Positions 20,893-23,674 of a stretch of 23,679 nucleotides of DNA are shown piece after piece. The stretch lies in IMG/VR virus record IMGVR_UViG_2724679073_000002. The stretch is one strand, 5' to 3'. The translations under genes were made by a program, and so were the position numbers. The DNA is from a virus. Taxonomy: Duplodnaviria > Heunggongvirae > Uroviricota > Caudoviricetes. The notes beneath the pieces were generated by a model, which saw only the letters and a program-made list of their open reading frames with translations, did not search any database and was not told the DNA's origin. Within the stretch, counting starts at the first letter, position 1. Each line of letters starts with the position of its first letter.

Positions 20893-21108
20893 TCAACACA
20901 CTGGCTGTAATACCATGCGGCATTTAGCGGCATTCATCGTACACTCCACGGTTAGCTCTTCATTCGTGGCATTCACCTGAAAGGTCCGGGAGTGTAATTG
21001 CGTACATTTACCACTGAACGAACCTTCAACAAGAACACGACCACGCTGCAAAATACGGAACGGAATTGTTCCCTGAAAAGGTTCTACGGTTACCCGTAAT
21101 TTCTTCAT
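20893..21108 (-). CDS. Hypothetical protein, 71 aa, translationally coupled to Rz
   Basis: ATG overlaps the Rz stop (ATGA); Cys-containing hydrophilic protein [23 protein letters not shown]...; no homology recognised. Confidence 0.45.
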
Positions 21109-21599
21109 GTATCCTCCGGATAATAAAAAGCCAGCTTAGTGCACTGAGTGCGGATATATTCCTGCGCCCCTTCCAGCTGCTTCTGCATTGTCATCAACCG
21201 TTCTCTGAGGATGAAATAATCCCGTTCAGCGGTGTCTGCCAGTCGGGGGCCGGTTGCATTATCCACGCTGGAGGTGCCGGTGGCTTCACGCACGGTACCG
21301 GGGCAGGTGGCGTTGACCCGCAGGCGCTTACGACCAGCGGCAACATCAGCGCGCAGAGTTTCATTTTCAGCTCTCGCATCGGCTAATTCCTTCGTGTATC
21401 TGGCATCAAGCGCAGCGACATCTCGCTGGCGCTGCTGCATGTCAGTAATAGTGGCATTCGCCAGTTTCAGCTCACTGACTTTTTTATCGCGCTGCGCTTT
21501 GTAGGTGATGGCGTTATCGCGGTAATGATTCAGCCCCAGACTAAGCACACCACAGGCTACCAGCATGACAATAATCACCACACACAGAACACGGTTCAT
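21105..21599 (-). CDS. Rz: i-spanin Rz, 164 aa
   Basis: Start at [17 protein letters not shown] (ATG 21599); [16 protein letters not shown]...[25 protein letters not shown] matches lambda Rz as recalled; N-terminal TM segment. Confidence 0.9.
21194..21379 (-). CDS. Rz1: o-spanin Rz1 lipoprotein embedded in +1 frame of Rz, 61 aa
   Basis: Lipobox LVVSAC followed by Pro-rich [36 protein letters not shown], closely matching lambda Rz1 as recalled; fully nested in Rz. Confidence 0.85.
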
Positions 21600-21600
21600 A

Positions 21601-21687
21601 TCACCACCAACGGATTGCCCAGACCAGAACAGCAATGGCCACAATACGAATGGCAAATGCCATTGCCCGAATAAGTTCAGCACTCAT
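21601..21687 (-). CDS. Candidate small hydrophobic peptide, 28 aa
   Basis: [28 protein letters not shown]; stop TGA one nt before the Rz ATG; too short for the ORF track. Confidence 0.25.
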
Positions 21688-21698
21688 CTTTTTAAAGT

Positions 21699-21821
21699 TC
21701 ACGATTTCAGCGCAATGACCAGTTTTGCCAGCCCATACAGCATCGGAGACACAGCAATACCAACAGCCACCCACTTAATAGCAAAAGCCAGCGCTCTGCT
21801 GATGTCATCAGTCACTGTCAC
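21699..21821 (-). CDS. Candidate small membrane peptide, ~40 aa, putative GTG start
   Basis: (V)TVTDDISRALAFAIKWVAVGIAVSPMLYGLAKLVIALKS; GTG overlaps the stop of the upstream 43-aa ORF (GTGA); the longer 90-aa track ORF in this frame looks non-protein-like at its 5' end. Confidence 0.25.
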   Translation of the reverse strand: MTVTDDISRALAFAIKWVAVGIAVSPMLYGLAKLVIALKS

Positions 21822-21949
21822 CCCAGCAGCCCCGACGAAGACAACATCACCCAGGCGAGGGACAGAAAAAGAGCAACCAGCATTAGTGAAAATGAAATAC
21901 CGACAATCACACACAGGACCTTTGCCGGCGTTATGAGTTTGTCTGACAT
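21818..21949 (-). CDS. Candidate small membrane peptide, 43 aa
   Basis: MSDKLITPAKVLCVIVGISFSLMLVALFLSLAWVMLSSSGLLG; ATG 2 nt after the stop of the upstream 31-aa ORF; one TM segment. Confidence 0.35.
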   Translation of the reverse strand: MSDKLITPAKVLCVIVGISFSLMLVALFLSLAWVMLSSSGLLG

Positions 21950-21951
21950 AG

Positions 21952-22047
21952 CTACCCCTTAATTGCCACAATTAACTGGGATACTACCCATAAAAAAGGG
22001 ATGCTCCAGACCAGCAAAAATTTCCAGTTTGGTAATTGACTAATCAT
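21952..22047 (-). CDS. Candidate small membrane peptide, 31 aa
   Basis: MISQLPNWKFLLVWSIPFLWVVSQLIVAIKG with AGGGAG SD 9 nt upstream; the track ORF 21952..22164 extends 5' through a terminator hairpin and is probably over-extended. Confidence 0.35.
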   Translation of the reverse strand: MISQLPNWKFLLVWSIPFLWVVSQLIVAIKG

Positions 22048-22118
22048 GAGTCGCAACTCCCTAATCAGTTTGCTAAAATCAATCAAGGCAGCCTCCCATA
22101 GCTTACTGCCATAAAAAC

Positions 22119-22151
22119 AAAACCCCGCTTGCTGCCAACAAACGGGGTTTT
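22119..22151. terminator. Bidirectional intrinsic terminator-like hairpin downstream of the endolysin gene
   Basis: AAAACCCCG (22119..22127) / CGGGGTTTT (22143..22151), 15-nt loop; T-rich flank on both strands. Confidence 0.5.
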
Positions 22152-22241
22152 TACTTTTATTCACTTAGGTTTTGCCAGTTCACAGGACTTCGTGTTATCC
22201 GCCCGCGTTGGCCAACCTCATTTTTCAGCAAAATATTCTGC

Positions 22242-22775
22242 TTATCTGTCGATTCCCCAGCACGCCAGCGCGCTCTCCTGGTCACGACGGAATACCTGAC
22301 CGTAACAGTTATTTGAGCGAATACGGCAGTCTCTGCCACCGTCCTTAATCCACCAGCGAATCGCTTCGCATGCTCCCCTGCGATCACCTGCATTAATTCG
22401 TCTGTAAAACGTCGACGGGAAACACTTACCGGGACCAATGTTGTACGGACAGAATGACGCGATCCCCGCTTTCTGGGGTTCGGTCAATGGCACTTTGATG
22501 TTTTTCTCCACCCATGCCAGCGCCTTATCACGCTCAATGGCGTTAACCCGGTCGCATTTTTCCTTCGACAACTTCATGCCCGGAACGACAGGTTTGCCAT
22601 CCACCAGGATGGCACCGCGGCAGATGGTCCAGATACCCGCGCCATCACGGTATGCCGTGGTGTGGTTACCTTCCTTTTCATCCAGAAACTGGTCGAGAAT
22701 GTCAGGCGCAGGCGCACCAGCGGCAATCAGCGCCAGAACGGCAGCCGACAGGCCGTATCTGATTTTTGCGTTCAT
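22242..22775 (-). CDS. R: SAR endolysin (T4-lysozyme-like), 177 aa
   Basis: Weakly hydrophobic Gly/Ala-rich N-terminus (YGLSAAVLALIAAGAPAP) typical of signal-anchor-release endolysins; catalytic E-x8-D-x5-T spacing in EGNHTTAYRDGAGIWT. Confidence 0.9.
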   Translation of the reverse strand: MNAKIRYGLSAAVLALIAAGAPAPDILDQFLDEKEGNHTTAYRDGAGIWTICRGAILVDGKPVVPGMKLSKEKCDRVNAIERDKALAWVEKNIKVPLTEPQKAGIASFCPYNIGPGKCFPSTFYRRINAGDRRGACEAIRWWIKDGGRDCRIRSNNCYGQVFRRDQESALACWGIDR

Positions 22776-22880: not shown

Positions 22881-23153
22881 ATGGACAATAACACCATTTC
22901 TCTACAGGAGTTGCTCGACAGCATTTCCAGGCTTCGGGAAGACGTGAATACCCTTACCGTCGCCTTCTCATATCTGGCATTCTCAATTCCAAGGGAACAG
23001 ATGCAATCAACGCTGGCATCAATCCAGTTTGAATCATGCAATCCCAAATGGTCTCAGGAACAACAAGACTCTTTCAGGCGGCTTGCTGTATTACTGGATG
23101 AAAAATATGCTGGTAAAATTACCATTTCGGCGGACTCTTCAGAGAACCCGTAA
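22881..23153 (+). CDS. Hypothetical protein, 90 aa, opposite-strand gene between holin and endolysin
   Basis: ATG at 22881 with AGGA SD 8 nt upstream; helical protein-like translation; candidate -10 TACAAT at 22861; GC hairpin plus T-run about 50 nt past its stop; overlaps the 3' end of the 114-aa minus ORF by 35 bp. Confidence 0.4.
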   Translation: MDNNTISLQELLDSISRLREDVNTLTVAFSYLAFSIPREQMQSTLASIQFESCNPKWSQEQQDSFRRLAVLLDEKYAGKITISADSSENP

Positions 23154-23463
23154 TTATTCCCGGTAGTTTTCCTCTGTAGGTTATCAACACATCCTGCGCC
23201 TCTAAAATTACGGGGCGCTTTTCCGGCGACTGCTCATCCCCTTCACATAACCCGGCAGCAACATCCAGGAAGACCTGTCTGATGCTCCTTCTGGCTGCTG
23301 CCTCATAAAACTCCAGCGCGGCACCTTCAACACGGTCCAGCGAGATGTCCAGGTCAAAAATTTCACCGTCAAAGCGTTTTTTGTCCCGTAACGCTAAAGT
23401 TACCGTAACTTTATTCTCAAAATTGCGGATCCCTTTCACAATCAGTTCATAGTTTTGAGTCAT
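23119..23463 (-). CDS. Hypothetical protein, 114 aa, between holin and endolysin
   Basis: Starts 4 nt after the holin stop; N-terminal ~65 aa looks like a folded domain (YELIVKGIRNFENKVTVTLALRDKKRFDGEIFDLDISLDRVEGAALEFYEAAARRS) and may resemble small uncharacterised proteins seen in this position in E. coli cryptic prophages (from memory). Confidence 0.55.
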   Translation of the reverse strand: MTQNYELIVKGIRNFENKVTVTLALRDKKRFDGEIFDLDISLDRVEGAALEFYEAAARRSIRQVFLDVAAGLCEGDEQSPEKRPVILEAQDVLITYRGKLPGIITGSLKSPPKW

Positions 23464-23467
23464 TGAA

Positions 23468-23674
23468 TTACTCTCCCCGTGCCGCCTTACGACGGTCCTC
23501 TCTGATTTTGAAATACAGGTTAGTCAGATATGTCAGCAGCCCAAACAGCAGACTCCCCAGCACGCCTATTGCCGCCCACTGAGACGGGGAAACCCTGTCC
23601 AGCAACTGCAGGAACCAGTAGCCCGTTCCCACCGCTGACGTGGTGTATGACACACCTGTTGTGATTTTTTCCAT
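23468..23674 (-). CDS. S: Pinholin (phage 21 S-like class II holin), 68 aa; a longer upstream start cannot be excluded because the window ends at 23679
   Basis: [68 protein letters not shown] closely matches phage 21 S as recalled; two TM segments and a charged C-terminus. Confidence 0.9.

What the first reader, a model, noticed from the sequence alone, without database searches (positions are those of the whole stretch)
21601..22047. Four tandem small hydrophobic ORFs between endolysin and Rz, each in a successive frame
In lambda and phage 21, R is followed directly by Rz. Here ~640 bp intervene, containing four back-to-back ORFs of 31, 43, ~40 and 28 aa, each with a predicted TM helix. Start/stop spacing is tight (2 nt; GTGA overlap; 11 nt; then 1 nt before Rz), and the frames step 0, 1, 2, 0. 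The combined length of ~142 aa resembles four-TM accessory lysis proteins of the P2 LysA type found between endolysin and spanin genes (from memory). The region may therefore be either a set of small membrane peptides (lysis regulators or toxins) or one membrane-protein gene broken by three frameshifts.
Basis: partly seen in the sequence, partly recalled or inferred. Interest (0 to 1): 0.65.

Follow-up and report, generated by a model that had tools for sequence, protein, structure and literature searches.

The report
Small membrane-protein genes inside prophage lysis cassette
Between the cell-wall-degrading enzyme gene and the outer-membrane-disruption gene of this E. coli prophage sit four real but unstudied genes for tiny single-helix membrane proteins, part of a shuffled gene module found in about a third of complete E. 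coli genomes and in most Shiga-toxin phage records, which most likely fine-tunes how or when the phage bursts the cell.

Summary
On the minus strand, 642 nt separate endolysin R (stop 22242) from Rz (start 21599). They hold four tightly packed small ORFs, each with one hydrophobic helix.

The single-gene-with-frameshifts idea is wrong. The same sequence occurs in hundreds of genomes, and no relative has a fused ORF. Each ORF belongs to its own family, and each family recurs alone or in other combinations. There is no similarity to P2 LysA.

- ORF1: family phrog_6632.
- ORF2: a 43-aa family present in 276 phage records, mostly Stx phages.
- ORF3 and ORF4: paralogues of a third family, normally 37-60 aa.

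All families show purifying selection in the proposed frames (pN/pS 0.15-0.5) and not in the alternative frames.

The array belongs to a conserved module: a terminator-like hairpin, a ~40-nt leader, then small TM gene(s), then the spanin gene. This module follows at least four unrelated endolysin types.

Function is untested. My best guess (about 0.4) is non-essential, late-expressed intramembrane modulators of lysis. The main rival is exclusion or moron-type cargo.

The parts
22242..22775 (-). SAR-type endolysin R (177 aa), the upstream boundary of the region
   Evidence: Pfam PF00959 at 9.3e-24 and phrog_7. PGAP annotates it as lysozyme/rrrQ.
22152..22241 (-). Spacer between the R stop and the hairpin. 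It contains GGGCGGATAACAC, which is shared with Salmonella loci. Role unknown.
   Evidence: Sequence comparison. It is the most polymorphic segment among close relatives (23 of 90 sites). The fold z-score of -4.16 includes the hairpin.
22119..22151 (-). Intrinsic-terminator-like hairpin (15 pairs) followed by a T-run. It is the conserved 5' element of the small-gene module.
   Evidence: Terminator scan. It lies upstream of the first small gene in every context examined. Seven of 14 pairs show compensatory changes across 10 diverse loci. It is invariant among 20 close haplotypes.
22087..22118 (-). Leader carrying the Shine-Dalgarno GGGAGG (22097..22092), 5 nt before the TTG
   Evidence: Read from sequence. 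The homologous leader ...AAGGCAAGGGAGAAC... is conserved in Salmonella, Enterobacter, Citrobacter and Klebsiella loci.
21952..22086 (-). ORF1, family A/H (phrog_6632). The long form is 44 aa from TTG 22086.
   Evidence: Family matches and alignments. pN/pS is 0.32-0.36 against SEN34, versus 0.8-2.7 in the alternative frames. Three contigs have lost the long form but keep the ATG form.
21818..21949 (-). ORF2, family B (phrog_4906), 43 aa. The predicted topology is N-in with one TM helix.
   Evidence: phrog_4906 at 4.5e-21. It occurs in 276 phage records, mostly Stx phages. There are 103 protein clusters, most of them 43 aa long. pN/pS is 0.25-0.5 at pS of about 0.6, versus 0.9-3.5 in other frames. 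PGAP protein WP_001280935.
21699..21821 (-). ORF3, family C subtype C1. It lacks the usual N-terminal MKNGLELKAP. It starts at the GTG overlapping the ORF2 stop, or at GTG 21815.
   Evidence: phrog_1115 at 6.4e-25; alignments. pN/pS is 0.15-0.25 at pS 0.6-0.7, versus 0.9 to above 40 in other frames. The protein is invariant in 69 loci despite two synonymous polymorphisms. AF2 gives a single helix.
21684..21698 (-). ACT TTA AAA AGA TGA: the remnant 3' end of a fourth small-gene family (D), whose stop overlaps the ORF4 ATG. It marks a recombination junction.
   Evidence: Homology to the D-C2 junction in L121 and to the D gene in L118. This is an inference from alignment by eye.
21601..21687 (-). 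ORF4, family C subtype C2, the 'short-N' form, 28 aa. It ends in RWW, and its stop lies 1 nt before the Rz ATG.
   Evidence: phrog_4493 at 3.8e-6. Full-length and short-N relatives are seen in L106, L107, L121 and P0082-84. pN/pS is 0.28, versus 0.65-4.45 in other frames. PGAP protein WP_032140280.
21105..21599 (-). Rz i-spanin (164 aa) with embedded Rz1 o-spanin (21379..21194), the downstream boundary
   Evidence: PF03245 at 4.4e-51 and phrog_13. The Rz1 ORF with a lipobox is seen.

Best explanation
SHOWN. The 642-nt R-Rz interval carries four genuine genes for single-pass membrane microproteins from three families:
- A/H: ORF1
- B: ORF2
- C: ORF3 and ORF4

They form one instance of a recombining module. 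The module is a terminator-like hairpin, a conserved ~40-nt leader with a Shine-Dalgarno site, a first small gene of family A/H or C, an optional B gene, and then the spanin gene. It occupies the endolysin-spanin junction of enterobacterial prophage lysis cassettes.

The window's array is a mosaic: A-B, then an N-terminally truncated C1, then a short-N C2, with a scrap of a fourth family at the last junction.

INFERRED.
- The genes have no promoter of their own and abut Rz (1-nt gap). They are therefore transcribed only as part of the Q-antiterminated late lysis transcript and translated by coupling (GTGA overlap and short gaps).
- The upstream hairpin keeps them silent in the lysogen.
- The products insert N-in into the inner membrane, leaving almost nothing in the periplasm. 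Within the bilayer they act as non-essential modulators of lysis timing or efficiency, through contacts with the transmembrane helices of holin, SAR endolysin or i-spanin, or with a host membrane factor.
- This would be functionally comparable to P2 LysA, antiholins, Mu releasin or LambdaSo Lcc6, without being homologous to any of them.

Confidence that these are real, late-operon membrane-protein genes is about 0.9. Confidence in the lysis-modulator function is about 0.4.
For: Coding signal. pN/pS is 0.15-0.5 in the proposed frames and about 1 or higher in the alternative frames, for all families. Family B keeps a strict 43-aa length over 103 clusters. All four ORFs are intact in 69 loci covering 20 haplotypes.

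Position. Family C sits after four kinds of endolysin:
- GH24 lysozymes with S21-type or HP1-type holins
- GH108
- M15
- M15_4

Family A/H sits after GH24 and GH19 endolysins.

Survey. I examined 70 viral contigs that carry the hairpin-arm plus leader motif.
- 60 have an endolysin within 1.5 kb upstream.
- 61 have a spanin or lipoprotein gene downstream.
- In between, nearly all have an A/H or C gene, with or without B.

Operon membership. The array is packed tightly against Rz. No sigma-70-like site lies between the hairpin and ORF1. Hairpin covariation is shown.

Non-essentiality. The inducible, transducing phage phiSTEC1589-Stx1c has ORF3 frameshifted and ORF4 deleted (PMC12029490). L103 has a stop codon inside ORF1.

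Functional analogues. P2 lysA lies between K and lysB and is annotated 'nonessential; affects timing of lysis'. Lcc6 is a 65-aa TM protein required for pinholin-dependent lysis (bioRxiv 10.1101/2024.01.23.576932).
Against: - No experiment bears on these families. Seven literature searches and one search of supplementary files found nothing.
- Family A/H also occurs, with the same hairpin and leader, inside tail or baseplate gene clusters in SEN34, Klebsiella and Citrobacter. That is typical of moron cargo rather than of lysis genes.
- The families co-occur with many different holins, endolysins and spanins, so no conserved phage partner is evident.
- ORF3 and ORF4 in this window lack their families' usual N-termini, and ORF4 has no clear Shine-Dalgarno site. 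Their translation here is not assured.
- A strong terminator in the middle of a lysis operon is odd, and insulation explains it only by inference.
- A prophage remnant in Salmonella keeps two intact C genes with no holin, endolysin or Rz gene in the ~5 kb examined. This hints at a host-side benefit.
Confidence: 0.4

Rival explanations
1. The genes are moron-type cargo. The small membrane proteins benefit the lysogen or the infected cell in ways unrelated to lysis. Examples would be superinfection exclusion or blocking DNA entry (as with HK97 gp15), or another change to the envelope. They have simply accumulated at a permissive recombination hot spot between R and Rz.
For: - The R-Rz junction is a hot spot that also accepts antirepressor genes.
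- Family A/H occurs as an insert in tail or baseplate clusters of three other phage types. In Citrobacter it sits beside a lipoprotein moron and is flanked by terminators.
- A degraded Salmonella prophage retains two intact C genes next to host genes.
- The array is dispensable for phage production.
Against: - No promoter-like site lies between the hairpin and the first ORF.
- The terminator lies upstream, not downstream, and the last gene abuts Rz. Expression in a lysogen is therefore not expected.
- Families B and C are found almost only at the endolysin-spanin junction.
- There is no match to any PADLOC defence model.
Confidence: 0.25
2. The array is only partly alive. ORF1 and ORF2 form a functional, recurrent A-B pair. 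ORF3 and ORF4 are recent recombination leftovers that happen to remain open but are not translated or not functional in this prophage.
For: - ORF3 has lost the family's own start, Shine-Dalgarno site and first 10 codons. ORF4 has a replaced N-terminus, no clear Shine-Dalgarno site and a gene scrap in front of it.
- Most relatives have only one or two small genes before the spanin gene.
- phiSTEC1589-Stx1c has lost both and is viable.
Against: - The GTGA overlap and the 11-nt gap are classic coupling arrangements.
- The 'short-N' C form recurs with diverged sequence in other arrays and shows pN/pS of 0.28-0.41.
- ORF3's protein is invariant over 69 loci while two synonymous sites vary.
- The B-C1'-C2' block has spread into different phage backbones.
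Confidence: 0.15
3. The genes are type I toxin-like. The hydrophobic peptides are membrane-depolarising toxins held in check by an antisense RNA that ends at the bidirectional hairpin.
For: - The ORFs are small and hydrophobic.
- The hairpin has an A-run and a T-run, so it could terminate transcription in both directions.
- A weak promoter-like site lies on the + strand at 21943-21972, antisense to ORF1.
- The hairpin region gives a weak, sub-threshold resemblance to ohsC.
Against: - The promoter-like site is within chance expectation (2 found, 2.5 expected). It depends on the ORF1/ORF2 junction, which is absent in most relatives.
- No Rfam family reaches threshold; the ohsC match scores 19.9 bits against a cut-off of 50.
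- The genes are embedded in an operon rather than forming a stand-alone locus.
Confidence: 0.05
4. The region is one four-TM membrane-protein gene of the P2 LysA type, broken by three frameshifts or by sequencing errors.
For: The combined length (~142 aa) and the position between endolysin and spanin resemble P2 LysA (141 aa).
Against: - The same sequence is 100% identical in the many complete genomes listed (354 records are at least 99% identical) and in three phage isolates.
- No fused ORF exists anywhere.
- Each part is an independent family with its own start.
- There is no similarity to LysA.
Confidence: 0.01

Closest known systems
P2 LysA (with lysB/lysC)
   Same: It is a membrane protein encoded between the endolysin (K) and the spanin genes. 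It is non-essential and annotated as affecting lysis timing.
   Different: LysA is one 141-aa polypeptide with several TM segments. Here there are four separate single-TM proteins of 28-44 aa with no sequence similarity to it. No timing phenotype is known for them.
Dual-start holin/antiholin pairs (lambda S107/S105, phage 21 S71/S68)
   Same: These are small inner-membrane lysis proteins. Families C and A/H have two in-frame candidate starts, and the longer form adds a basic N-terminal extension (C: MRKYKRILLRLT; A/H: IDFSKLIRELRL).
   Different: The two starts lie 12-13 codons apart rather than 2-3. The proteins have a single TM helix. There is no Pfam holin match, and hhalign against the S21-like holin gives a probability of 1.8%. 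Use of either start is untested.
Mu gp25 releasin and Shewanella LambdaSo Lcc6
   Same: Both are small membrane proteins other than holin, endolysin or spanin that take part in SAR-endolysin or pinholin lysis (PMC9239132; bioRxiv 10.1101/2024.01.23.576932).
   Different: They are essential in their phages, encoded elsewhere in the genome (Lcc6) or carry DUF2730 (gp25), and have larger soluble parts. Here there is no DUF2730 match, and at least ORF3 and ORF4 are dispensable.
Morons of lambdoid phages (for example HK97 gp15, lambda bor/lom; from my own knowledge)
   Same: They are small accessory genes inserted between essential late genes and exchanged horizontally as units. Family A/H also sits in tail clusters.
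   Different: Classical morons have their own promoter upstream and a terminator downstream. Here the terminator-like hairpin is upstream, no promoter is seen, and the array runs straight into Rz.
Type I toxins (Hok, Ldr, Ibs, ShoB, TisB; from my own knowledge)
   Same: They are hydrophobic peptides of 19-50 aa with one TM helix.
   Different: There is no Rfam antitoxin or toxin RNA match. There is no independent promoter, no supported antisense RNA and no sequence resemblance. The genes are located within an operon.

Membership tests
PHROG families phrog_6632 (ORF1), phrog_4906 (ORF2), phrog_1115/phrog_4493 (ORF3, ORF4); all of unknown function | Significant profile-HMM match over the length of the profile | tested here: met
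   ORF1 long form: 1.4e-13 over profile positions 1-43 of 45. ORF2: 4.5e-21. ORF3: 6.4e-25. ORF4: 3.8e-6, and its full-length relative scores 5.5e-16.
P2 LysA-type lysis accessory protein | Sequence homology to LysA | tested here: not met
   BLASTP of each peptide and of the concatenate against P2 LysA gave a best E of 0.03 in a one-sequence search with composition statistics off.
P2 LysA-type lysis accessory protein | A single polypeptide of ~140 aa with multiple TM segments | tested here: not met
   The region holds four separate ORFs. No fused homologue exists in any database searched.
P2 LysA-type lysis accessory protein | Encoded between the endolysin and the spanin genes | tested here: met
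P2 LysA-type lysis accessory protein | Non-essential, and a mutant shifts lysis timing | not testable with these tools
   Dispensability of ORF3 and ORF4 is suggested by phiSTEC1589-Stx1c. Timing is unmeasured.
Holin/antiholin (phage 21 S family, PF04971) | A Pfam or profile match to a holin family | tested here: not met
   No Pfam hit for any of the four peptides. hhalign of the window's holin against family C gives a probability of 1.8%.
Holin/antiholin (dual-start motif) | Two in-frame starts that yield products with a different N-terminal charge | tested here: inconclusive
   In-frame upstream starts are conserved in families C and A/H, including an in-frame indel and loss-of-long-form variants. 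Which starts are used is unknown, and the window's ORF3 and ORF4 lack the extension.
Type I toxin-antitoxin | A cis- or trans-encoded antisense sRNA with its own promoter | tested here: not met
   There is only one chance-level promoter-like site on the + strand. No Rfam family reaches threshold.
Type I toxin-antitoxin | Toxicity of the peptide when over-expressed | not testable with these tools
   This requires cloned expression.
Moron (promoter-gene-terminator unit) | Own promoter upstream and terminator downstream of the gene | tested here: not met
   No promoter-like site in the leader. The hairpin is upstream. There is a 1-nt gap to Rz and no downstream terminator. The Citrobacter copy does have a downstream terminator.
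i-spanin (Rz-like) | An N-terminal TM helix plus a periplasmic coiled-coil domain | tested here: not met
   The peptides end 1-14 residues after the TM segment. There is no PF03245 or DUF2514 match. ORF2 against Rz by BLASTP gives E 0.28.
Anti-phage defence systems (PADLOC) | A match to a defence-protein model | tested here: not met
   No hits for any family.

The most novel reading that the evidence does not exclude
Enterobacterial temperate phages carry an unrecognised, recombinationally shuffled system of at least four families of single-pass microproteins (28-65 aa). The system is delivered as a 'terminator hairpin, leader, small gene(s)' cassette at the endolysin-spanin junction, and also in tail operons. 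These proteins would form a new class of intramembrane lysis regulators. They may use long and short isoforms from dual starts, as holins and antiholins do, and they may act on the spanin step, for which no dedicated protein regulator is known to me. Because family B sits in the lysis cassette of most sequenced Stx phages, it would also influence the timing of Shiga-toxin release.
Probability: 0.25. Interest if true: 0.7.

Novelty: new variant of a known kind. Interest (0 to 1): 0.5.

Why it matters
Lysis of Gram-negative hosts is usually described as a three-step process involving holin, endolysin and spanin. Recent work on Mu releasin and LambdaSo Lcc6 shows that additional small membrane proteins can be decisive.

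The families here are widespread:
- Parts of the array occur in 1862 of 5426 complete E. coli genomes.
- The full array occurs in 589 of them; the listed full-length matches include O25b:H4/ST131 strains such as EC958 and JJ1887.
- Family B occurs in 276 phage records, mostly Stx-converting phages, where it is usually not annotated.

Despite this, they carry no function, no Pfam or NCBIfam model, and no literature that I could find.

If they tune lysis timing, they affect burst size, prophage induction outcomes and Shiga-toxin release. If instead they are exclusion or host-modifying factors, they are a common and overlooked lysogenic-conversion trait.

Either way, the conserved hairpin-leader module gives a simple sequence handle for finding such genes. 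The natural variants (arrays of one to four genes, broken copies, long and short starts) provide ready-made material for genetic tests.

Tried and rejected
- **Frameshifted single gene or sequencing error:** rejected.
- **Homology to P2 LysA:** none.
- **Family A related to family C.** By eye, the C-terminus of ORF1 (PFLWVVSQLIVAIKG) resembles that of ORF3 (PMLYGLAKLVIALKS). hhalign gives a probability of 0.8%, so this is not supported. The shared 'RWW' ending of some A/H and C members is better explained by a common 3' junction that overlaps the Rz ribosome-binding site (CGTTGGTGGTGAnATGAACCG).
- **Family C related to the S21 holin TMD2.** This was prompted by P0062, a holin::C1 chimera. hhalign gives 1.8%, and P0062 is a single 554-nt metagenome scaffold, so it may be an assembly chimera.
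- **ORF2 as a duplicate of the Rz N-terminal TM helix.** Both contain VLCV and the DNA strings CTGTGTGTG and ATGCTGGT. BLASTP is not significant.
- **A known sRNA in the R 3' region or the array:** no Rfam hit at gathering scores, and only terminator-driven sub-threshold hits otherwise. AgvB, AsxR and the Pas sRNAs map elsewhere.
- **Pfam, NCBIfam and PADLOC:** no hits for any family.
- **Literature and supplements:** nothing on these proteins or their accession numbers. The supplementary tables of the Sakai Ribo-seq small-gene paper do not contain the peptide strings.
Full report
**Context**

The window is the late region of a lambdoid E. coli prophage, read on the minus strand. It is 100% identical over the tested 801 nt to prophages of O25b:H4/ST131 strains such as JJ1887 and EC958, and to three isolated phages.

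The gene order is as follows:
- S21-type class II holin, 23674..23468
- YdfR/DUF1327, 23463..23119
- an antisense 90-aa gene, 22881..23153 (+ strand)
- SAR endolysin R, 22775..22242
- the region in question
- Rz, 21599..21105, with embedded Rz1
- a 71-aa ORF
- YlcI/YnfO on the opposite strand
- HNH endonuclease and terminase

Yes. The four ORFs, their lengths, the 2-nt gap, the GTGA overlap, the 11-nt gap and the 1-nt gap before Rz are exactly as described. The stepping of frames follows from those junctions and carries no information.

Each peptide has a strongly hydrophobic 19-residue window, with mean Kyte-Doolittle hydropathy of 1.9-2.9. AlphaFold2, given a family alignment, models ORF3 as one helix at pLDDT 94. 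In the K-12 prophages DLP12 and Qin, R overlaps Rz directly, so the 642 nt are an addition.

**Are they genes?**

PHROG profiles of unknown function match all four:
- ORF1: phrog_6632
- ORF2: phrog_4906
- ORF3: phrog_1115, phrog_4493, phrog_3246
- ORF4: phrog_4493

ORF3 and ORF4 are therefore paralogues. Pfam, NCBIfam and PADLOC have nothing. PGAP annotates ORF2, ORF3 (as 51 aa) and ORF4 as hypothetical proteins and misses ORF1.

I collected divergent relatives and computed Nei-Gojobori pN/pS in all three frames.

| Family | pN/pS, proposed frame | pN/pS, alternative frames |
|---|---|---|
| C (ORF3) | 0.15-0.25 at pS 0.6-0.7 | 0.9 to above 40 |
| B (ORF2) | 0.25-0.5 at pS about 0.6 | 0.9-3.5 |
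| A/H (ORF1), against SEN34 | 0.32-0.36 | 0.8-2.7 |
| ORF4 type | 0.28 | 0.65-4.45 |

Family B keeps a length of 43 aa across 103 protein clusters. Among 69 IMG/VR loci with the same 642-nt architecture (20 haplotypes), all four ORFs are intact. ORF3's protein is invariant although two synonymous sites vary. These are protein-coding genes.

**One broken gene?**

No. There is no fused ORF in any relative or database; the longest homologues are 87 aa and are upstream-extension calls. The families also occur separately. The architectures seen are listed below.

| Architecture | Where seen |
|---|---|
| R - hairpin - C1 (60/48 aa) - B - Rz | O157:H7 and many others |
| R - ant - B - Rz | Stx phages such as BP-4795 |
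| R - hairpin - A - B - Rz | L103 |
| R - hairpin - C2 (37 aa) - Rz | L106 |
| lysozyme - hairpin - C1 - Rz | Salmonella L086 |
| endolysin - hairpin - A/H - Rz | Salmonella phage SPN3UB (unannotated there) |
| GH108 endolysin - hairpin - (D) - C - B - 60-aa lipoprotein | L092, L108, L118 |
| M15 peptidase - hairpin - C2 - lipoprotein | L107, L121 |
| GH19 endolysin - hairpin - A/H - 92-aa i-spanin | Enterobacter |
| KilAC antirepressor gene inserted ahead of A'-B-C1'-C2' | L002, L102 |

P2 LysA shows no similarity.

**Refinements of the four ORFs**

*ORF1.* The family is 44-45 aa and begins (M)IDFSKLIRELR.
- The window has a TTG at 22086, 5 nt after GGGAGG. Five other loci have a GTG at the same position.
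- In three contigs the long form is broken, by a 1-nt deletion or by GTG to GTA, while the ATG form stays intact.
- Both starts may therefore be used.

*ORF3.* This is a C1-type gene that has lost the family's first ten codons (MKNGLELKAP) at the junction with ORF2. It must start at the overlapping GTG or at GTG 21815.

*ORF4.* This is a 'short-N' C2-type gene.
- Its ATG and the ten bases before it are homologous to the junction between a fourth family (D, 65 aa) and C2 in other arrays.
- The sequence at 21698..21684 is therefore a scrap of a D gene.
- The terminal RWW-stop overlaps the Rz ribosome-binding site. This junction is conserved even where a lipoprotein gene replaces Rz.

The window's array is thus a mosaic built by recombination at gene boundaries.

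**The module**

In every context the first small gene is preceded by a GC-rich hairpin with an A-run before it and a T-run after it (window 22151..22119). A ~40-nt leader follows, with consensus TTTCTGCACCTTGAGGAAGGCAAGGGAGAAC. This holds even where family A/H sits among tail or baseplate genes in SEN34, Klebsiella and Citrobacter.

Across ten diverse loci, 7 of 14 stem pairs show compensatory changes. The hairpin is therefore part of the small-gene cassette, not simply 'the R terminator'.

I scanned IMG/VR for the 3' arm plus leader and obtained 70 contigs.
- Nearly all have an A/H or C gene within ~40 nt, with or without B after it.
- 60 have an endolysin of at least four types upstream.
- 61 have a spanin or lipoprotein gene downstream.

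The motif was taken from lysis contexts, so this sample is biased towards them.

**Distribution**
- Parts of the array occur in 1862 of 5426 complete E. coli genomes, and the full array in 589.
- Family B is in 276 phage records, family A in 16 and family C in 12.
- A profile of family C finds only 21 clusters among 1.84 billion representative proteins, so the family is narrow and enterobacterial.
- Family A/H reaches Citrobacter, Enterobacter, Klebsiella, Providencia and Salmonella.

**How it probably works**

*Shown.* These are real genes for single-helix membrane proteins, packed into the lysis operon directly ahead of the spanin gene.

*Inferred.*
- There is no promoter-like site in the leader and no gap before Rz. 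The genes should therefore be expressed only from the Q-antiterminated late transcript and translated by coupling.
- The upstream hairpin would shield them, and Rz, from stray transcription in the lysogen.
- The proteins have 4-23 residues on the basic N-terminal side and 2-14 residues after the helix. Any activity must therefore occur within or at the inner membrane.

*Non-essentiality.* They are not essential. phiSTEC1589-Stx1c is induced, forms particles and lysogenises K-12 (PMC12029490), yet it has ORF3 frameshifted and ORF4 deleted. L103 has a stop codon in ORF1.

*Best guess.* I put non-essential intramembrane modulators of lysis timing or efficiency at about 0.4. This role is analogous, but not homologous, to three known cases:
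- P2 LysA
- Mu releasin (PMC9239132)
- Lcc6

*Main rival.* I put moron-type cargo such as exclusion factors at about 0.25. The tail-cluster copies of A/H support it, as does a Salmonella prophage remnant that keeps two C genes without lysis genes.

*Lesser rivals.*
- ORF3 and ORF4 may be untranslated leftovers in this particular array (about 0.15).
- A type I toxin arrangement has no specific support.

**Novelty**

The genes are catalogued as hypothetical proteins and as PHROGs of unknown function. I found no functional study.

The kind, accessory small membrane proteins in lysis cassettes, is known. Three features are new variants of that kind: tandem microprotein arrays from several families, the hairpin-leader cassette, and the possible 12-13-codon dual starts.

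**Verdict**

I rate it of moderate interest (0.5).

Noticed in passing
window 22152-22241 (- strand); L086, L099, L106: The ~90 nt between the R stop and the hairpin contain a motif, GGGCGGATAACAC(G/A)AA, shared between E. coli and Salmonella loci. With the hairpin it folds with z = -4.16. Yet it is the most polymorphic segment among close relatives (23 of 90 sites). It could be a 3'-UTR-derived RNA. No Rfam family matches.
   Followed up: partly
relatives L006, L086, L092, L105, L106, L091, L245, L275 (family C); L249, L282, L299 (family A/H): Both first-position families have two in-frame candidate starts 12-13 codons apart. The long form adds a basic segment (MRKYKRILLRLT in C, IDFSKLIRELRL in A/H). 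The frame is kept through an in-frame indel in L106. Some contigs have lost only the long form. This is reminiscent of holin/antiholin dual starts.
   Followed up: partly
L092 2831-2986, L108 1774-1956, L107 1591-1782, L118 2306-2461: In GH108 and M15 lysis cassettes the small genes are followed not by Rz but by a 51-63-aa lipoprotein (phrog_7528; lipobox LVGC; three Cys in the ~30-aa mature part). It is entered through the same RWW-stop/ATGAACCG junction. No i-spanin was seen there. Whether this is an o-spanin-like or other outer-membrane lysis factor is open.
   Followed up: no
L118 1807-2004; L121 596-829; L090 2356-2499: There is a fourth small TM family (D, 65 aa, MQAKINTTKDKFGDDLMIKAETTPQGADD...) coupled by an ATGA overlap to a short-N C gene. 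L090 carries a divergent 47-aa C paralogue. Arrays of one to four microprotein genes are therefore common.
   Followed up: partly
phage records (for example LC616036, KP682371, NC_028685, NC_010237): The family B ORF (43 aa) lies in the lysis cassette of most Stx-converting phage genomes but has no annotated feature in most GenBank records.
   Followed up: no
P0062 / L110 (ENA scaffold, 554 nt): This is a 59-aa chimera of the S21-type holin N-terminus (to ...SPSQW) fused to the C1 C-terminus (VAVGVAVSPMLYGLAKLVIALKS), joined at a short stretch of DNA microhomology. It is either a rare recombinant or an assembly artefact.
   Followed up: partly
window 20893-21108 (- strand); L107 1920-2165; L259: A 71-aa ORF overlaps the Rz stop (ATGA) and matches phrog_2571. 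A homologue follows the lipoprotein in M15/GH108 cassettes. It is a conserved companion of unknown function at the end of lysis cassettes.
   Followed up: no
window 22881-23153 (+ strand): A 90-aa gene (phrog_2411, 1.1e-58) lies antisense between YdfR and R, inside the otherwise co-directional lysis operon. PGAP annotates it as hypothetical.
   Followed up: no
L099 (SPN3UB) 1496-1606: An unannotated 36-aa hydrophobic ORF (MSKRDVSALCFLMAAAVAISGNDGWGWLIFAGIIIL; weak phrog_14810 match) overlaps the end of the endolysin gene, upstream of the hairpin.
   Followed up: no
window 21821-21949 versus 21480-21599 (- strand): The TM region of ORF2 and the N-terminal TM helix of Rz share (K/R)VLCV and the DNA strings CTGTGTGTG and ATGCTGGT. 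This is not significant by BLASTP (E 0.28) and may be chance.
   Followed up: yes
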